Of a stretch of DNA of 64,000 nt, positions 44,454 to 64,000 are shown piece by piece. Source of the DNA: the human T2T-CHM13v2.0 reference genome, Homo sapiens. A program made the position numbers and the translations under genes. Location of the stretch: the NCBI RefSeq assembly GCF_009914755.1, contig NC_060935.1, one strand, 5' to 3'. The notes under the pieces were generated by a model. That model worked only from the letters and a program-made list of their open reading frames with translations. It was not told the origin of the DNA and did not search any database. Positions within the stretch are counted from its first letter, which is position 1. Every line of letters begins with the position of its first letter.

Positions 44454-45000
<547 letters not shown>

Positions 45001-45228: not shown

Positions 45229-46310
45229 GAAACAGAAATCATGAGCTATTTTAACTGAAAGGATTTACCCTGGGAAGTGAGAGTTTACAGAGTCATTGGA
45301 AGGGCCGCTGTATTAGTTTGCCAGGGCTGCTGTAATAAGATCAAGGTCTTGGGGGTTAGGACTTCAACATATGAATTTGGGGGTGGCGGAGCACAAGTCA
45401 GCTCATAACAGCTGGGGAGGAGGCTTTAGGCCTGGCCCTGAGAAATTACTCCCAGACTAAGGCTGCAGAACTGACCCCCTAGAGAGTCACCACCTTGGTC
45501 ATAGACAGCAAGCAGAGAGGGAGGAATCAGGAAGTCCCTGCTGTAGTTGCTGGATCCAGCGGTGAATGTTCTGAGCTGTGATCCTGGGATCAGGAAGCTG
45601 CAGCCACTGCCACAGTGTTGGTTCTAGAGCCAGGCAGCATGAGATCCAGTCATCGCATCCACACTACAGCTATAAGAAGGAGGAAGGGCAGAAGGTTGTG
45701 CTCCACCCTTTAAGGACACTTGCTAGAAGTCAGACAGAACGTCTGGTCACACTCTGTTTGACAGAAGTTAGTCACATGCAACATCTAGCTGCATGGGAGG
45801 CTGGGAAATGTGGTCTTTGTTCCCAACAGCTATGCATATACAGGGCCAAAAATCTCCAGGAGTATGATGAAGGGAAAATGGGGGAATGGAGTTTGGGGGT
45901 CAAGAGTGGTCTCTGCTGCACCTCCCTGAACAGAGACTCTAGGAGACTAGTAATGAATTCAAGATAAAGCAGCCAGTGTGGCCAAGGTTCTCCTTCAGTG
46001 CCTGAGCTCTTGGCCATAGGAGCTCACGCCTCCTCTCCTTTCCTGTGAATGACTGTGTGCAGTGTAAGCATGGAGCTTCTGCACTCTCGTGGCCAGGTAC
46101 TCTCCATGTGGCCAGAAATGGCAGTTTCTGAGGGGCTCATGTTGTAGGTGATGATACAAAGAAGAGAAAGAGAGGGATCAGTTTTTCCAAGTGTGCATTT
46201 CATTTCAGTGTAAATATTTTGTGAGGTGGGGCATCCCTGTCTCCTGGAGAAATATATTTTTAATCTAATTGTTTACTTTCTTTGCATAGCCCCTAGTCCA
46301 ATTCCTGACC
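45229..46310 (+). repeat. Intragenic duplication, copy A (end of intron 2 plus exon 3 start)
   Basis: Colinear with 62645-64000. By-eye counts: 11 mismatches in 120 nt at 45961-46080, and 2 in the last ~70 nt before the acceptor. Confidence 0.95.
45309..45410 (-). mobile_element. Internally deleted paralogue of the MLT1 LTR at 62726-63108
   Basis: Same two termini in the same flanking context, but only 102 bp long. Confidence 0.8.
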
Positions 46311-46526
46311 CTTCAGTAGCAACTGTTGCCACAGGGGAAAATGGCATAACGCAGATCAGCAGTACAGCAGAATCCTTTCATAAACAGAATGGAACTGGAA
46401 CACCTCAGGTGGAAACAAACACCAGTGAGGATGGTGAAAGCTCTGGAGCCAACGATAGTTTAAGAACACCTGAACAAGGATCTAATGGGACTGATGGGGC
46501 ATCTCAAAAAACTCCCAGTAGCACTG
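46290..46526 (+). CDS. PTPRJ: PTPRJ exon 3 (237 nt), Ser/Thr-rich N-terminal ectodomain segment
   Basis: tttgcatag|CCCCTAGTCCA...AGCACTG|gtaagc; encodes PSPIPDPSVATVATGENG...ASQKTPSST (within ORF 46226..46618). Confidence 0.96.
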
Positions 46527-46943
46527 GTAAGCATAGGCTTTTCTGCCAGTCATGTTTCTTAAAGGAAATCGGTAGAATTTATAAATGTCATGTTTTCCAA
46601 ATACTGTTCTTCTTTTAATTACCTAAGAAAATCTTTTTAAAAATTTTTATAAAGATAGTAATGCATATTCATTATATAAAACATAGACAAGAAAAGAATA
46701 ACAAGTAAATCATTAACTGGAGATAACCATTGATCACTTGATATACGAGTTTTATAATTTTAAGATATATGCATGCCTGTGTGCATATGTATATACATAT
46801 ATATGTTTTATTTTGTTTTACAAATATCAAGGTCATCCTTTACATGTAGCTTCTCACCAATATATTACAAATATTCTTCCCTGTTAGTATATACATTTCT
46901 ACAGGACAGTTTTAATACCTGCCTGGCATTCTATTTTCTAAAT

Positions 46944-47134
46944 CAGGGTTGGCAGATAATAATGGTCCTTGGGCCAAATATAGATCACTTTCTGTTTTTG
47001 TAAGTAAAGTTTTATTGAGTCTGCCTATGGCTGCTTTCATGCTAGAATTGAGTAGTGGCAATGGAGAATTTGTGGCTTGTAAAGCCTGAAATATTTATTC
47101 TGTGGCCCTTACAGAAAAACATTGCTGATACCTG
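46944..47134. mobile_element. MER58A-like MITE
   Basis: cagggttggcag ... aaagttttattg ... gcctgaaatatttattctgtggcccttacagaaaaacattgctgatacctg. Confidence 0.7.
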
Positions 47135-47154
47135 GGTTAGATAATTGATTCTAA

Positions 47155-47500
47155 AACTGTGGTTCAGAGATCTCTAGGGGTCTCCTAGATTCTTTCAAGG
47201 TATTTCTGGGTATTGTTTTCATAATACTACTAACATGTTATTTGGCTTCTTTACTCTCATTTTATCATGAGTGTACAGTGGAGTCTTGCAGATTCTATAT
47301 GATTTGGGATGACACTGTCACTCTTACAGCTAATGGAATGTATGCTTTCATATTGTTTAAAAAACTTTATCTTTTTTATTTCTAATACAGTATGGTAAAT
47401 ATTAATCAATATAACCCATATAAACAAAAATTCTCCGGGAGCCTTAATAATTTTTAAGAAGTTAAAAGGGCCCTGAGACCACAGTGTTTAAGAATTACTT
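47155..47500. mobile_element. Charlie1-derived non-autonomous element
   Basis: Ends resemble those of the element at 17356-19284 (taataatttttaag ... ccctgagacc ... tttaagaattact). Confidence 0.6.
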
Positions 47501-47699
47501 GTCTAAAAGCATTGTAAATTATTTAACTGCTCCCCTGTTGTTGGGAAGGTAGATTATTTATTTATAATTTTTCATAAAAAACATTGTGATACAATAGTTT
47601 TGTTAGTTCTAGAAGTATTGATAAAATCACATACACAGTTAAAATAAGTCATTGAATTATTTCTAGGGTAATATGAGAAACTTTTAGAAATTCCTAAGG

Positions 47700-48022
<323 letters not shown>

Positions 48023-58502: not shown

Positions 58503-58721
58503 ATGCCAGCAATACAGAGAGAAGCCGGGCAGGGAGCCCCACCGCCCCTGTGCATGATGAGTCCCTCGTGGGACCTGTGGACCCATCCTCCGGCCAGCAG
58601 TCCCGAGACACGGAAGTCCTGCTTGTCGGGTTAGAGCCTGGCACCCGATACAATGCCACCGTTTATTCCCAAGCAGCGAATGGCACAGAAGGACAGCCCC
58701 AGGCCATAGAGTTCAGGACAA
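58503..58721 (+). CDS. PTPRJ: PTPRJ exon 6 (219 nt), linker plus C-terminal half of an FNIII fold
   Basis: gaaacag|ATGCCAGC...AGGACAA|gtaggt; DASNTERS...GLEPGTRYNATV...IEFRT; codon CGA at 58604-58606 is Arg326. Confidence 0.96.
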
Positions 58722-61564: not shown

Positions 61565-62725
61565 GTGAGTTCATGCCTGGCTCTCACCACCCTTTCCTGC
61601 TGTCCTGCTCCGTGCCAGGCCCAGACACAGGATGCATGATGTAGTAATGGTGACTGTTGGCTGACCACACGCCAAGCTTCGTGTGACATGCTTTCCTTGC
61701 ACTGGCACATTGTATGCTCACAACAGCCCTGTGATGTGGTTGGAAGTAGCCTTATTTTATAGATAGGAAGCCAAGGCTGAGAGAGGTGCTAGACAGGTAT
61801 CACAGCTGGAAAGTGGCAGAGGTGAGATTAAGCCTCTGGTATTTCTCACCTGGAGCCTGCGCTTGTAACTCTCTTTCCAGTGTGGAGGAGACCTAGAGTG
61901 AATTGATACAGGGAGACAAAAATGACCTGGTATTCATATCCCCTTGTGTCTTGGGTGCTGACATTATAACGAATCACTGGCACAGCTGTATCTCATCTTT
62001 GTTTGTTTAAATGTCCCTTAAAAATAAGATTTTATGCAGCAAATAAAAAGCTTTAGGTTTCAAAGAAGGTCCGATAATGTAAAATAAAACAGTAATGGTG
62101 CACTAGTAGTACAGTGGTATAATATTGATTATATACTATTAAACAATAGTAGTGACACCAGCACTGCATTTTGCACTGTGCCATGAGATTTATAGACACT
62201 GTAGTGGCCTCCGAGGTAGGTATTGGGGTCCCCTTTTACAGATGAGGAAATGACACCCTGATGGCTGAACAGTTTGCCCAAAGCCACAGAGCTAGTGAGT
62301 AGCAGAGCAGGACTTGAACTCAGGGGTGTGTGGCTCTGGACCCAGGCTTATCCCACAAGAATGTCCATTCCTTCGCAGGAAGCACACCTTAGCATTCTTA
62401 TAGATGTATTTTGGACTGGATCTTTGGGAAAATGAAATATGCTTGCATTTCTTTACCTTTTACTCTTTTACTATTTATTAGTTAGGATTAGGTTCAGCCA
62501 CGAATAACACCACCAAAAACAACAACAACAAAACCCAAGTATCCATGGCTTAAACAAGACAGGGGTTTATTTCTCTCTCCTGTAACAGAAGCCCAGTGCT
62601 AGGCAGGATGGGGATGATAGAGGTTATCCAAGGCTCAGTTGTATGAAACAGAAACTGTGAGCTATTTTAACCAAAAGGGATTTATCCTGGGAATTGAGGT
62701 TTTGCAGAATCATTGGAAGAGCTGG

Positions 62726-63108
62726 TGTATTAGTTTGCTAGGGCTACCAGAACAAGTACCAAAGGCTGTGTGGCTTGAACAGAAATAGACTTTCTCATAG
62801 TTCTGGAGGCTGAAGGTCAAAGATTAAGGCAACGGCAGGTGTGGTTTCTTCTGAGGCCTCCCTCTTGGCTTATAGATGACTGTCTTCTCCCTCACATGGT
62901 TGTCCTTAGTCTGCGTGTGCCTATGCCCTCATCTCCCTTTATAAGGACACCAGTCTTGCTGGATTAGGGCCTACCTTCATGACCTCACATTAACTTAATT
63001 ACCTCTTTGAAGACCCTGTCTCCAAAGACAGCCACATTCTGAGGTCTTGGGGGTTAGGACATAAACATACACATTTGGGGGTGAGGGAGCACAAGTCAGC
63101 TCATAACA
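62726..63108 (-). mobile_element. MLT1 (MLT1B/C-like) MaLR solo LTR, full length
   Basis: tgtattagtttgctagggct ... ttctggaggctg ... ataaggacaccagtc ... cagctcataaca. Confidence 0.8.
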
Positions 63109-63979
63109 GTTGAGGAGCAGGCTTTAGGCCTCGCCCCAAGAAATGACTCCTGGACTAAGTCTGCAGAACTGACCCCCTGGAGAGTCACCACCTTGGTCAC
63201 AGACAGCAGAGGGAGGAATCAGGAAGTCTCTGCTGTAGTTGCGGGATCCAGGGGTCTATGTTCTGAGCTGTGATCCTGGGATCAGGAAGCTGCAGCCACC
63301 GCTGAGGTTTTGGTTCTAGAGCCAGGCAGCGTGAGCTCCAGTCATTGCATCCACACTACAGGTATAAGAAGGAGGAAGGGCAGAAGGTTGTGCCCCACCC
63401 TTAAAGGACACTTCCTAGAAGTCACCCAGTACCTCTGCTCATGCTTCGTTGAGCAAAACTTAGTCACATTGCAACATCTAGCTCCATGGGAGCTGGGAAA
63501 TGTGGTCTTTGTTTCCAACAGGTATGCACACACAGGGCTAAAAATCTGGGTGGGTATGATGAAGGGAAAATGGGGGAATGGATTTTGGGGGTCAAGACTG
63601 GTCTCTCTCTGCTGTCCCTCCCTGAACAGAGGCTCTGGGAGGCTAGTAATGCATTCGAGATAAAGCAGCCAGTGTGGCCAAGGTTCTCCTCCAGAGCCTG
63701 AGCCCTTGACCACAGGAGCTCACGCCTCCTCTCATTTCCTGTGAATGATTGTGTGCAATGTAAGCACAGAGCTTCTGCACTCTCATGATCAAGTGCTCTC
63801 TCCATGGCCAGAAACAGCAGTTTCTGAGGGGCTCATGTTGTAGGTGATGATACAAAGAAGACAGAGAGAGGGATCAGGTGTCCTAAGTGTACATTTCATC
63901 TCAGTATTTTCTGAGGTGGGGCATCCCTGTCTCCTGGAGAAGTATATTTTTAATCTAGTTGTTTACTTTCTTTGCATAG

Positions 63980-64000
63980 CCCCTGTTCCAGTTTCTGACT
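63980..64000 (+). CDS. PTPRJ: PTPRJ exon 8, first 21 nt (truncated by window end)
   Basis: tttgcatag|CCCCTGTTCCAGTTTCTGACT gives (P)PVPVSD in frame with exon 7. Confidence 0.9.

What the first reader, a model, noticed from the sequence alone, without database searches (positions are those of the whole stretch)
45229..46310. PTPRJ exon 3 and its upstream intron are a recent intragenic copy of intron 7/exon 8
Seen in the sequence: 45229-46310 aligns colinearly with 62645-64000, about 17.5 kb downstream. By-eye counts give ~89% at 45411-45540, ~91% at 45961-46080, and only 2 mismatches in the last ~70 nt before the acceptors, which both read gtttactttctttgcatag|CCCCT. The match crosses repeat boundaries and includes unique-looking sequence and the splice site, so independent transposon insertions cannot explain it. 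Inference: ~10-15% intronic divergence points to a duplication (or conversion) within primate evolution that created a new first ectodomain exon. From memory, and unverified here, mouse Ptprj runs from the signal peptide straight into the first FNIII domain, which would fit exon 3 being a lineage-specific gain.
Basis: partly seen in the sequence, partly recalled or inferred. Interest (0 to 1): 0.85.

Follow-up and report, generated by a model that had tools for sequence, protein, structure and literature searches.

The report
PTPRJ exon 3: decayed exon-8 copy
Exon 3 of the human phosphatase gene PTPRJ, with about a kilobase of intron on each side, is an old internal copy of the exon 8 region whose coding part has lost its folded domain, while the intron in front of it was re-copied much later.

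Summary
Copy A (45229-47615) matches copy B (62645-65745, running past the window end) colinearly through the upstream intron, the whole exon and about 1.1 kb of the downstream intron. No third full-length copy exists in the genome.

Exon 3 is a same-frame, same-phase copy of exon 8, which encodes a fibronectin type III (FN3) domain. It no longer matches the FN3 family, is 10% hydrophobic, and is predicted to be unfolded.

Divergence is a mosaic:
- upstream intron K2P 0.12
- exon 0.52
- downstream intron 0.24-0.31

One change point sits at the splice acceptor (46290-46310). A single recent duplication cannot produce this. I read it as an older unit, roughly 60-90 Myr by internal repeat clocks, whose upstream intron was later homogenised by gene conversion at about AluS age.

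The exon is not a recent gain. New World monkeys already carry a degenerate version. Rabbit, pika, beaver, marmot, mole-rat and manatee have an exon-8-like first domain that groups with their own exon 8, which indicates concerted evolution or recurrent duplication. Its absence in mouse therefore looks like a loss.

No non-human DNA was available, so the deep origin stays open: before primates or on the primate stem. This is a new example of known processes and of moderate interest.

The parts
45229..45328 (+). Copy A, 5' end of the duplicated unit (intron 2). It holds unique sequence and the start of an old interspersed repeat, and pairs with B 62645-62745.
   Evidence: 84.2% over 101 columns; K2P 0.173 (0.096-0.287); no homology upstream of 45229 or 62645.
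45329..45343 (+). Scar of a 297-bp internal deletion of the old repeat in copy A. Copy B keeps the whole element.
   Evidence: B 62746-63041 has no counterpart in A. B 62725-63110 matches many genomic copies over its full length.
45344..46289 (+). Copy A, upstream intron block (3' part of intron 2), the low-divergence tract. I read it as a later gene-conversion tract ending at the acceptor. It holds a shared old repeat at about 45681-45825.
   Evidence: 933 aligned columns, 89.0% identity, K2P 0.120 (0.097-0.146). Change point at 46295, support interval 46290-46310. Repeat sub-part.
46290..46526 (+). PTPRJ exon 3 (237 nt, phase 1-1), a degenerate in-frame copy of exon 8 (258 nt). It encodes a polar tail rich in N-glycosylation motifs instead of an FN3 domain.
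   Evidence: Same frame open; indels of 9 and 12 nt; 29 of 78 residues identical. K2P 0.517. No Pfam family at E<=10. 10% hydrophobic, 4 N-x-S/T sequons. pLDDT<50.
46527..46774 (+). Copy A, first part of intron 3. It pairs with B 64238-64489 (outside the window) and is unique sequence.
   Evidence: 79.8% identity, K2P 0.241 (0.175-0.331); only B matches it in the genome.
46857..47615 (+). Copy A, second downstream block. It pairs with B 64985-65745 (outside the window) and holds shared old repeats at about 47020-47135 and 47213-47507. Copy B has a private Alu (64596-64903) between the two downstream blocks.
   Evidence: 75.1% identity, K2P 0.309 (0.262-0.367). Colinear match. Repeats. Alu.
62645..63979 (+). 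Copy B, upstream block (3' part of intron 7), including the complete old interspersed repeat at 62725-63110.
63980..64000 (+). Start of PTPRJ exon 8 (63980-64237 by the annotation). Copy B continues to about 65745 beyond the window.
   Evidence: L002 and L009 were read beyond the window. The exon 8 peptide matches Pfam fn3 at E 4.6e-5.

Best explanation
A 2.4-kb unit made of exon 3 and about 1 kb of intron on each side is an intragenic paralogue of the exon 8 unit 17.4 kb downstream. Exon 8 is a symmetrical phase-1 exon encoding one FN3 domain, so a copy placed after the signal-peptide exon stays in frame. In the human lineage the two units did not diverge in one step.

(1) Shown: the exon's 3' end and the downstream intron carry the older layer (K about 0.24-0.31). 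Inferred: this dates to roughly 60-90 Myr ago, from internal repeat clocks.

(2) Shown: the upstream intron, up to the acceptor, is far more similar (K 0.12). Inferred: it was homogenised later by non-allelic gene conversion, at about the age of the bulk of the local Alus, probably near or after the platyrrhine split.

(3) Shown: the exon core is the most diverged part (K about 0.5, dN/dS about 1.2). It escaped that conversion and lost every FN3 core residue. Inferred: it became an unfolded polar cap, rich in glycosylation motifs, at the membrane-distal tip of CD148/DEP-1.

Inferred from protein models only: the same first-domain slot in Glires and Afrotheria is kept similar to the animal's own exon 8. 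Exchange between this slot and exon 8 therefore appears to be a recurrent property of the gene, and the slot probably predates primates.
For: Colinear homology runs across intron, exon and intron: 45344-46774 vs 63042-64489 at 80.4% over 1478 columns, and 46857-47615 vs 64985-65745 at 71.4% over 791 columns. Only two full-length copies exist in the genome.

The exons share frame and phase, have indels of 9 and 12 nt, and have identical acceptor and donor cores.

The mosaic is quantified: K2P 0.120 (0.097-0.146) upstream, 0.517 (0.389-0.657) exon, 0.241 (0.175-0.331) and 0.309 (0.262-0.367) downstream. A three-segment model improves log-likelihood by 56 over one segment, with change points at 46295 (46290-46310) and 46477 (46464-46524).

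Internal clocks: non-CpG half-distance is 0.055 upstream against a bulk of 3-8% for local Alus. The B-private Alu is at 8.6%, and the downstream half-distance is 0.12-0.15. In the shared old repeat of the downstream block, A-B is K 0.293, against B-other median 0.429 and other-other median 0.407. Upstream, A-B is 84-89% identical while that repeat is 72-76% identical to other copies.

Loss of fold: 0 Pfam families for the exon 3 peptide at E<=10, against fn3 E 4.6e-5 for exon 8 and 9.6e-8 for the rabbit first domain. Exon 3 is 10% hydrophobic with 1 aromatic residue, against 31% and 6 in exon 8. AF2 gives pLDDT<50 for residues 146-230 of P0002, where exon 3 is 154-231, while the FN3 domains score 80-95.

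No purifying signal between the copies: mismatches are 32, 29 and 26 of 78 at codon positions 1, 2 and 3, and dN/dS is 1.19 (0.62-2.47).

Age of the exon: marmoset and squirrel monkey carry a shorter degenerate orthologue that shares derived motifs, and the tamarin model reads the same exon in another frame.

Concerted pattern elsewhere: the first domain is 91.7% identical to the animal's own exon 8 in rabbit, 84.5% in pika, 78.6% in beaver, 70.1% in marmot and 83% in manatee, yet the rabbit and pika first domains are only 69% alike. The tree pairs each with its own-lineage exon 8 with starred support, and one clade of all first-domain copies is rejected (delta lnL 193, p-AU 1.7e-6).
Against: No non-human genomic DNA was available, so the conversion is inferred from divergence within one genome only. 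The defining cross-species test was not done.

The dates rest on local Alu and old-repeat divergences plus recalled ages of repeat families, and they are rough. The downstream layer could be as young as about 60 Myr, which falls on the primate or anthropoid stem.

Part of the downstream block is old repeat and T-rich sequence, where misalignment could inflate K. The unique part 46527-46774 still gives 0.24.

The tract end coinciding with the acceptor to within about 10 nt is unexpected for a random tract end and needs selection or luck.

The exon's K exceeds the downstream intron's, so it needs either faster-than-neutral change or an older, never-homogenised core.

The tree joining catarrhine exon 3 with anthropoid exon 8 is slightly better than the free tree (lnL +2.9, p-AU 0.62). 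This fits a primate-age origin of the exon as well as it fits my reading.

None of the 115 models of 800 aa or more carries both the lemur-type first domain and an exon-8-like first domain. That is awkward for long coexistence of two first exons.

No relic of the lemur-type exon was found in window 1-109000.
Confidence: 0.62

Rival explanations
1. There was a single duplication on the primate (haplorrhine or anthropoid) stem, independent of the Glires and Afrotherian copies, and no later conversion. The three divergence levels would reflect local rate differences: a slowly evolving or constrained upstream intron, a fast downstream intron, and a positively selected exon. This is essentially the first reader's exon-birth reading.
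For: Lemur, galago, sifaka and tarsier models have a different first domain and no exon-3-like unit. The exon 3 peptide search found only catarrhines: 19 of 21 hits are named, all catarrhine, and 2 are unnamed and identical to the query. A tree with catarrhine exon 3 joined to anthropoid exon 8 is not rejected and is marginally better. The downstream half-distance of 0.12-0.15 overlaps what the oldest local Alus suggest. No model holds both first-domain types.
Against: Upstream and downstream K differ 2 to 2.5-fold with non-overlapping intervals over 933, 238 and 730 aligned sites, and the shift is abrupt at the acceptor. No annotated regulatory element covers the upstream block or its partner (hub annotation). 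Excluding CpG sites does not change the contrast. Parallel insertion of the same exon into the same intron in Glires, Afrotheria and anthropoids would be needed.
Confidence: 0.25
2. The first-domain slot is one ancient exon of the array. The cysteine-rich FN3-like first domain of lemurs, bats, cetaceans, xenarthrans and marsupials would be its old form. In several lineages it has been overwritten by exon 8 sequence and then left to decay. On this view human exon 3 is the latest decayed overwrite, not an added exon.
For: The two first-domain types are mutually exclusive: 32 models have the cysteine-rich type, 8 have an own-exon-8-like copy, 17 have catarrhine-type exon 3, and none has two types, out of 115 models. 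No relic of the cysteine-rich exon exists in the human gene. The cysteine-rich domain is FN3-like, and its best profile match among PTPRJ exon types is the exon 8 type (93.4%, 50 columns), closely followed by the exon 9 type (93.0%, 23 columns). Own-lineage pairing of first domain and exon 8 is seen in five lineages.
Against: Conversion needs flanking homology, which would have decayed long ago if the slot is that old. The profile preference for exon 8 is marginal. The manatee and elephant copies are multi-exon (exon 8' plus exon 9'), which looks like fresh duplication rather than overwriting. Nothing here tests locus identity.
Confidence: 0.1
3. The shared block is only a set of interspersed repeats inserted independently in both introns, or an assembly artefact.
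For: Old repeats do lie inside the block, at 62725-63110, about 45681-45825, about 47020-47135 and about 47213-47507. In the last of these, A-B identity (71% by blastn) is no better than the best unrelated copy (72%).
Against: Only A and B match over the full length in the whole genome. Homology covers unique sequence, the exon in frame and both splice sites. The repeats sit at colinear positions, and in a joint alignment A-B (K 0.293) is below every A-other (minimum 0.313) and B-other (minimum 0.362) distance. 11-40% divergence excludes a collapsed or doubled assembly.
Confidence: 0.01

Closest known systems
Internal duplication of symmetrical phase-1 module exons (exon shuffling or duplication in FN3/Ig-repeat receptors, including the R3 receptor phosphatases PTPRB, PTPRJ, PTPRH, PTPRO and PTPRQ). 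Recalled general knowledge; PMC5604967 passages describe the R3 group as having 8-9 FNIII-like repeats.
   Same: One FN3 domain per phase-1-1 exon, so a copy stays in frame. Exon 3 and exon 8 share frame, phase and splice-site cores.
   Different: The copy is dispersed (17.4 kb away, before exon 4) and not tandem. It still carries recognisable intron on both sides, and its product is no longer an FN3 domain.
Non-allelic (interlocus) gene conversion and concerted evolution between nearby duplicates, as described for globin genes. Recalled knowledge, not read here.
   Same: A contiguous block has much lower paralogue divergence than its neighbours, with a sharp edge. Paralogues group by species rather than by copy in Glires and Afrotheria.
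   Different: Here the homogenised part is intron and the coding part is the most diverged. The tract edge coincides with the acceptor. Cross-species DNA evidence for the human tract is missing.
Exons more diverged than their introns in primate duplicated genes. Examples are the morpheus/NPIP family (recalled) and 'Accelerated exon evolution within primate segmental duplications', PMC3906575, seen only in the search listing with the start of its abstract.
   Same: Exon K (0.52) exceeds K in both flanking introns (0.12 and 0.24-0.31), and dN/dS is about 1.2.
   Different: This is a single exon inside one gene and not a gene family. Part of the contrast comes from later homogenisation of one intron. 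Positive selection was not shown (ratio interval 0.62-2.47).
Decay of a folded repeat domain into a disordered, glycosylated region such as a mucin-like stalk or cap. General concept, recalled.
   Same: Loss of the Trp and Tyr core, 78% G/P/N/Q/S/T/E/D residues, 4 N-glycosylation sequons, and no confident fold.
   Different: The ancestry is still readable at DNA level through the flanking introns, which is unusual for such regions.

Membership tests
Intragenic duplication of an exon with flanking intron | Colinear similarity in the same orientation through the upstream intron, exon and downstream intron | tested here: met
   45229-47615 vs 62645-65745 in three colinear blocks
Intragenic duplication of an exon with flanking intron | Exactly two copies in the genome, so not an interspersed family | tested here: met
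   Whole-genome searches with 45420-46310 and 46290-47640 return only A and B at full length
Intragenic duplication of an exon with flanking intron | Same reading frame, phase and splice sites in both exons | tested here: met
   Frame 2 is open in both; indels of 9 and 12 nt; acceptor 24 of 24 identical; donor core CTG|GTAAGCA shared
   Only sub-parts are repeats. Upstream A-B is 84-89% identical against 72-76% to other copies. In the downstream repeat, A-B K 0.293 is below all A-other and B-other distances.
Non-allelic gene conversion tract | A contiguous block with significantly lower paralogue divergence than adjacent paralogous sequence | tested here: met
   K 0.120 (0.097-0.146) against 0.241 and 0.309; change point 46290-46310; delta lnL 56 for three segments against one
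Non-allelic gene conversion tract | In cross-species trees of the tract, paralogues group by lineage, while outside the tract they group by copy | not testable with these tools
   No non-human genomic DNA is held. At protein level, first-domain copies group with own-lineage exon 8 in rabbit, pika, beaver, marmot and elephant, but that concerns the exon in other lineages and not the human intron tract.
Fibronectin type III domain (Pfam PF00041) | Match to the family profile | tested here: not met
   Exon 3 peptide: 0 families at E<=10. Exon 8 peptide: fn3 E 4.6e-5, 24 bits (cut-off 25). Rabbit first domain: 32.6 bits.
Fibronectin type III domain (Pfam PF00041) | Conserved core Trp (strand B) and the Tyr-x-Phe/Leu 'PGT.Y.F' stretch. 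The motif names are recalled. | tested here: not met
   Where exon 8 has LAW, exon 3 has ITQ. Where exon 8 has GLFPGTKYCFEI, exon 3 has GESSGANDSLRT. Exon 3 has 1 aromatic residue against 6 in exon 8.
Fibronectin type III domain (Pfam PF00041) | Predicted beta-sandwich fold | tested here: not met
   AF2 of P0002 with a 36-row alignment: residues 146-230 have pLDDT<50 and no strands, while neighbouring FN3 domains score 80-95. The alignment is heterogeneous in this region, so this is supporting evidence only.
Segmental duplication in the usual catalogue sense (at least 1 kb at 90% identity or more; threshold recalled) | At least 1 kb at 90% identity or more | tested here: not met
   The best block has 933 aligned columns at 89.0%, and the whole unit is about 75-80% identical
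Primate-specific new exon | Exon present in primates and absent, even as a relic, in outgroups | tested here: inconclusive
   Present in catarrhines and platyrrhines. Lemur, galago, sifaka and tarsier models lack it. Glires and manatee have an exon-8-like first domain in the same slot. Orthology of the slot cannot be tested without DNA.

The most novel reading that the evidence does not exclude
The membrane-distal first domain of PTPRJ is a recurrently rewritten cassette. Across placental mammals the slot after the signal peptide would have been repeatedly overwritten or re-seeded from the exon 8 FN3 unit by ectopic exchange, and then released to decay at or above the neutral rate. This would give each lineage its own tip: intact FN3 in lagomorphs, half-decayed in beaver, marmot and manatee, a disordered glycosylated cap in anthropoids, nothing in murids and carnivores, and the old cysteine-rich domain elsewhere. 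The human upstream tract that stops exactly at the acceptor would be the footprint of the latest exchange, trimmed by selection at the exon edge.
Probability: 0.3. Interest if true: 0.6.

Novelty: new member of a known kind. Interest (0 to 1): 0.4.

Why it matters
CD148/DEP-1 is studied as a tumour suppressor, a regulator of platelets and immune cells, and a receptor for ligands and antibodies. Its large ectodomain is part of size-based exclusion models. Papers on this were seen only as search listings with abstract starts.

The residues encoded by exon 3 have no counterpart in mouse, and the first domain differs in kind among mammals: unfolded cap, intact FN3, cysteine-rich domain, or none. 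Results obtained with the N-terminal tip, such as epitopes, ligand sites and ectodomain length, therefore cannot be carried over between species without checking.

For genome evolution this is a compact, readable case. A folded-domain exon has turned into a disordered segment while its intron ancestry is still visible. One intron was homogenised up to the splice site while the exon diverged faster than either intron.

It also warns against dating an exon's birth from the best-matching flank alone.

Tried and rejected
1. Transposon-only explanation: rejected.

2. Extension of the homology beyond 45229 or 47615-47630: sensitive blastn found nothing except Alus.

3. Relic of the lemur-type cysteine-rich first exon in the human gene: tblastn with 7 peptides against window 1-109000 gave only weak hits to other FN3 exons (best E 0.004, at exon 6).

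4. A single clade of all first-domain copies, and a clade of catarrhine plus Glires first-domain copies: both rejected by AU test. The groups were chosen after the first tree had been seen. Five rows were dropped before the tree: B_Nomascus (mis-extracted), and A_Thomomys, A_Nannospalax, A_Saimiri and A_Callithrix (short or partial).

5. Alu subfamily naming: not possible without a repeat library. I used non-CpG divergence from a consensus of the 55 local Alus, computed inside a script and not printed. Ages attached to these values are recalled and rough.

6. Positive selection on exon 3: dN/dS 1.19, but the interval 0.62-2.47 includes 1, so it is not claimed.

7. Direction of the upstream conversion (A to B or B to A): no test was possible. 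The first six codons of catarrhine exon 3 look more exon-8-like than those of marmoset, which hints at B to A after the platyrrhine split, but this rests on very few residues.

8. Literature: searches for PTPRJ with 'exon duplication' (1 paper, unrelated), with 'fibronectin type III' plus 'positive selection' (0), with 'gene conversion' (4, unrelated), and with five duplication or exon-gain terms (none of the 15 papers listed, out of 210 holding at least 2 of the 6 terms, contained PTPRJ) found no description of this relation. Passages of PMC3183016 and PMC5604967 say nothing on it. Subscription journals are not covered.

10. Only gene models were available for other species. Several are truncated or mis-framed (for example the tamarin P0034 and Sciurus carolinensis P0091, which skips from exon 2 to exon 8), so absence in a model is weak evidence of absence in a genome.
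Full report
**Observation**

The reported similarity is real. blastn aligns 45344-46309 with 63042-63999 at 87.1% over 971 columns, and 45229-45328 with 62645-62745 at 84.2%. The 24 nt around both acceptors are identical, and the last 70 intronic nt differ at 3 sites.

A whole-genome search with 45420-46310 returns only itself and copy B at full length. Only about 45681-45825 belongs to a multi-copy old repeat.

The 297 bases that B has and A lacks (62746-63041) are the interior of a complete old interspersed repeat at 62725-63110. That repeat has 4163 first-look candidates, 40 of which were scored, at 72-76% identity. Homology begins about 80 bp upstream of it in unique sequence, so copy A carries a deleted version of an element that was already present. 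I recall this element as a MaLR-type LTR; that name was not tested.

**Extent**

Reading beyond the window shows that the homology does not stop at the acceptor. 45344-46774 matches 63042-64489 (80.4% over 1478 columns), and 46857-47615 matches 64985-65745 (71.4% over 791 columns). A private Alu in B (64596-64903) lies between these blocks.

Nothing further matches on either side apart from Alus. The unit is therefore 45229-47615 against 62645-65745: exon 3 and exon 8, each with about 1 kb of intron on both sides. A search with 46290-47640 again finds only B at full length, although old repeats lie at about 47020-47135 and about 47213-47507.

**The exon**

Exon 3 (237 nt) and exon 8 (258 nt) align in the same frame and phase. 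Their two indels are 9 and 12 nt, their donor cores are identical, and 29 of 78 residues are identical.

Exon 8 encodes one FN3 domain (Pfam fn3, E 4.6e-5 for the lone exon). The exon 3 peptide matches no Pfam family even at E<=10. The core Trp and the PGT-Y-x-F stretch are gone.

| | Exon 3 | Exon 8 |
|---|---|---|
| Hydrophobic residues | 10% | 31% |
| Aromatic residues | 1 | 6 |

In addition, exon 3 is 32% Ser+Thr and has 4 N-x-S/T sequons.

An AlphaFold2 model of the chimpanzee isoform P0002, built with a 36-row alignment of orthologues, gives pLDDT below 50 and no strands for residues 146-230, where exon 3 is 154-231. The following FN3 domains reach 80-95. The alignment is heterogeneous there, so I treat this as support and not proof.

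**Mosaic divergence**

| Block | Aligned sites | K2P (interval) |
|---|---|---|
| Upstream intron | 933 | 0.120 (0.097-0.146) |
| Exon | 237 | 0.517 (0.389-0.657) |
| Downstream intron, first block | 238 | 0.241 (0.175-0.331) |
| Downstream intron, second block | 730 | 0.309 (0.262-0.367) |

Excluding CpG sites changes little.

A three-segment model beats a one-segment model by 56 log-likelihood units. It places the change points at 46295 (support 46290-46310, which is the acceptor) and at 46477 (46464-46524). Identities in the three segments are 89.0%, 59.3% and 74.9%.

Between the exons, mismatches are spread evenly over codon positions (32, 29 and 26 of 78). dS is 0.45 (0.24-0.79), dN is 0.535 (0.40-0.71), and the ratio is 1.19 (0.62-2.47). 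There is no sign of purifying selection on the pair, and dN lies above the downstream intron's interval.

**Dating from inside the genome**

Non-CpG divergence of the 55 local Alus from their own consensus is mostly 3-8%, with an older group at 10-18%. The B-private Alu is at 8.6%.

Half the upstream distance (0.055) sits in the bulk Alu range. Half the downstream distance (0.12-0.15) lies above the private Alu and in or above the old Alu group, once the subfamily differences of that group are allowed for.

In the old repeat shared by the downstream blocks, A-B K is 0.293. This compares with B-other median 0.429 and other-other median 0.407, so A-B is about 0.7 of the family's pairwise depth. 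Upstream, A-B is 84-89% identical while that repeat is 72-76% identical to other copies, which is about 0.4 of the family depth.

With recalled repeat ages, this gives roughly 35-50 Myr for the upstream block and roughly 60-90 Myr for the downstream block. These figures are rough.

**Other species (protein models only)**

The exon 3 peptide finds 21 proteins. Nineteen are named, and all are apes or Old World monkeys. Human and monkey versions are only about 81% identical.

Two region searches returned PTPRJ orthologues across mammals. The sequence between the signal peptide and the exon-4-type domain falls into distinct kinds:
- **Catarrhines:** the 78-residue degenerate unit.
- **Marmoset and squirrel monkey:** a shorter degenerate unit sharing derived motifs with it. 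The tamarin model reads the same exon in another frame.
- **Lemurs, sifaka, galago, tarsier, bats, mole, cetaceans, camel, sloth, anteater and marsupials:** a different, cysteine-rich FN3-like domain.
- **Rabbit and pika:** an intact exon-8-like FN3 (Pfam fn3, 32.6 bits for rabbit).
- **Beaver, marmot, gopher, mole-rat, jerboa and manatee:** partly decayed or partial exon-8-like units.
- **Mouse-like rodents, carnivores, pig and ruminants:** none.

Of 115 models of at least 800 residues, 32 have the cysteine-rich domain. Eight have an upstream copy resembling their own exon 8 (one of these, P0023, is doubtful). Seventeen have the catarrhine-type exon 3. None has two kinds.

**Concerted pattern**

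The first-domain copies resemble the same animal's exon 8 far more than they resemble each other.

| Species | First domain vs own exon 8 |
|---|---|
| Rabbit | 91.7% |
| Pika | 84.5% |
| Beaver | 78.6% |
| Marmot | 70.1% |
| Elephant | 92.9% |
| Manatee | 83% |

By contrast, the rabbit and pika first domains are only 69% alike.

In a maximum-likelihood tree (49 rows, 85 columns, five short or faulty rows dropped), each first-domain copy pairs with its own-lineage exon 8 with starred support. The copy label needs 6 changes on this tree.

One clade of all first-domain copies is rejected (delta lnL 193, p-AU 1.7e-6). So is a clade of catarrhine plus Glires copies (delta lnL 128, p-AU 1.1e-5).

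Independent insertion into the same slot in both rabbit and pika is implausible. Exchange between this slot and exon 8 therefore seems to be a standing property of the gene.

The catarrhine copy sits on a long branch. Joining it to anthropoid exon 8 gives a slightly better likelihood than the free search did (+2.9, p-AU 0.62), which neither shows nor excludes a primate-age origin.

In Afrotheria the copies are multi-exon (exon 8' with exon 9'; the elephant has more), which looks like separate duplication.

**Interpretation**

Firm: exon 3 is a descendant of the exon 8 unit and is no longer an FN3 domain. One event cannot explain the three divergence levels.

Most likely: an older unit whose upstream intron was later homogenised up to the acceptor by non-allelic gene conversion, with the exon core escaping and changing at or above the neutral rate.

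A tract end within 10 nt of the acceptor suggests selection against tracts that entered an exon. For example, decayed sequence copied into exon 8 would destroy a structural domain. This is inference.

Whether the slot predates primates (my preference, about 55%) or arose on the primate stem independently of Glires (about 40%) cannot be settled without non-human DNA.

Two results sit awkwardly with long coexistence of two first exons: no relic of the cysteine-rich exon exists in the human gene, and the first-domain kinds are mutually exclusive. This keeps an overwriting model alive. That domain's best profile match among PTPRJ exon types is the exon 8 type, but only marginally.

**Function (inferred)**

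The exon supplies an unfolded polar extension rich in glycosylation motifs at the tip of the ectodomain. It may add length and glycan bulk rather than a binding fold. No experiment or paper seen here addresses this.

**Novelty**

Searches of the paper library for PTPRJ with duplication, conversion or selection terms found nothing on this relation, and passages of two CD148 papers were silent on it. Subscription journals are not covered.

The processes involved are all known: module-exon duplication, gene conversion and domain decay. This is a new, well-preserved example in a much-studied human gene. It has practical weight for comparing human and mouse CD148 and for dating exon gains.

Noticed in passing
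P0023 (Ictidomys) residues 1-307 and P0022 (Marmota): Ground-squirrel and marmot PTPRJ models (1513 and 1562 aa) carry several near-identical tandem copies of the exon-4-type FN3 unit. This is a separate, apparently recent exon amplification in the same ectodomain.
   Followed up: no
Exon 8 units of Papio and Chlorocebus (P0009, P0012); human counterpart at window 63980-64237: Old World monkey exon 8 reads ..CISCV(Q/R)EVAW.. where apes and New World monkeys read ..QEGAG.S.VE.. This is a short replaced stretch with 2 extra residues, like a compensated frameshift inside a structural FN3 domain.
   Followed up: no
Exons 3-8, window 46290-64237; Human and baboon ectodomain exons are only 81-86% identical in protein, while the cytoplasmic phosphatase part is nearly identical in the sequences. 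The whole ectodomain evolves very fast in catarrhines.
   Followed up: partly
P0094 (manatee) and P0025 (elephant): Manatee reads signal peptide, exon-8-like, exon-9-like, then exon 5 type, with no exon 4 type. Elephant reads exon 9', 10', 7', 8' and 9' before exon 4. These are multi-exon N-terminal duplications in Afrotheria.
   Followed up: partly
First domain of P0027, P0032, P0033, P0035, P0093, P0064 and others; Lemurs, tarsier, bats, cetaceans, xenarthrans and marsupials share a cysteine-rich FN3-like first domain ending ..CCQ.V.T. It has no detectable relic in the human gene. Its best profile match among PTPRJ exon types is the exon 8 type (93.4%).
   Followed up: partly
Residues 391-438 of P0002, the first half of the exon 6 product, window 58503-58721; The N-terminal half of the exon 6 product is also predicted unfolded (pLDDT<50). 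Exon 6 is short (219 nt) and only 19% hydrophobic, so it may be a second partly decayed unit inside the array.
   Followed up: no
Window 44537-44847 and 47700-47995; Two comparatively young Alus (non-CpG divergence 4.7% and 3.6%) bracket copy A within about 400 bp and about 85 bp. Neither is present at copy B, so they are later insertions and not the cause of the duplication.
   Followed up: partly
Predicted models P0002, P0004, P0012 and others, N-termini; Many predicted PTPRJ models start about 115 residues upstream of the MKPAAREA.. start with a conserved Arg-rich extension (MTRGGGSGSS...RRRRRRRR...). This implies an upstream in-frame start in exon 1, which lies outside this window.
   Followed up: no
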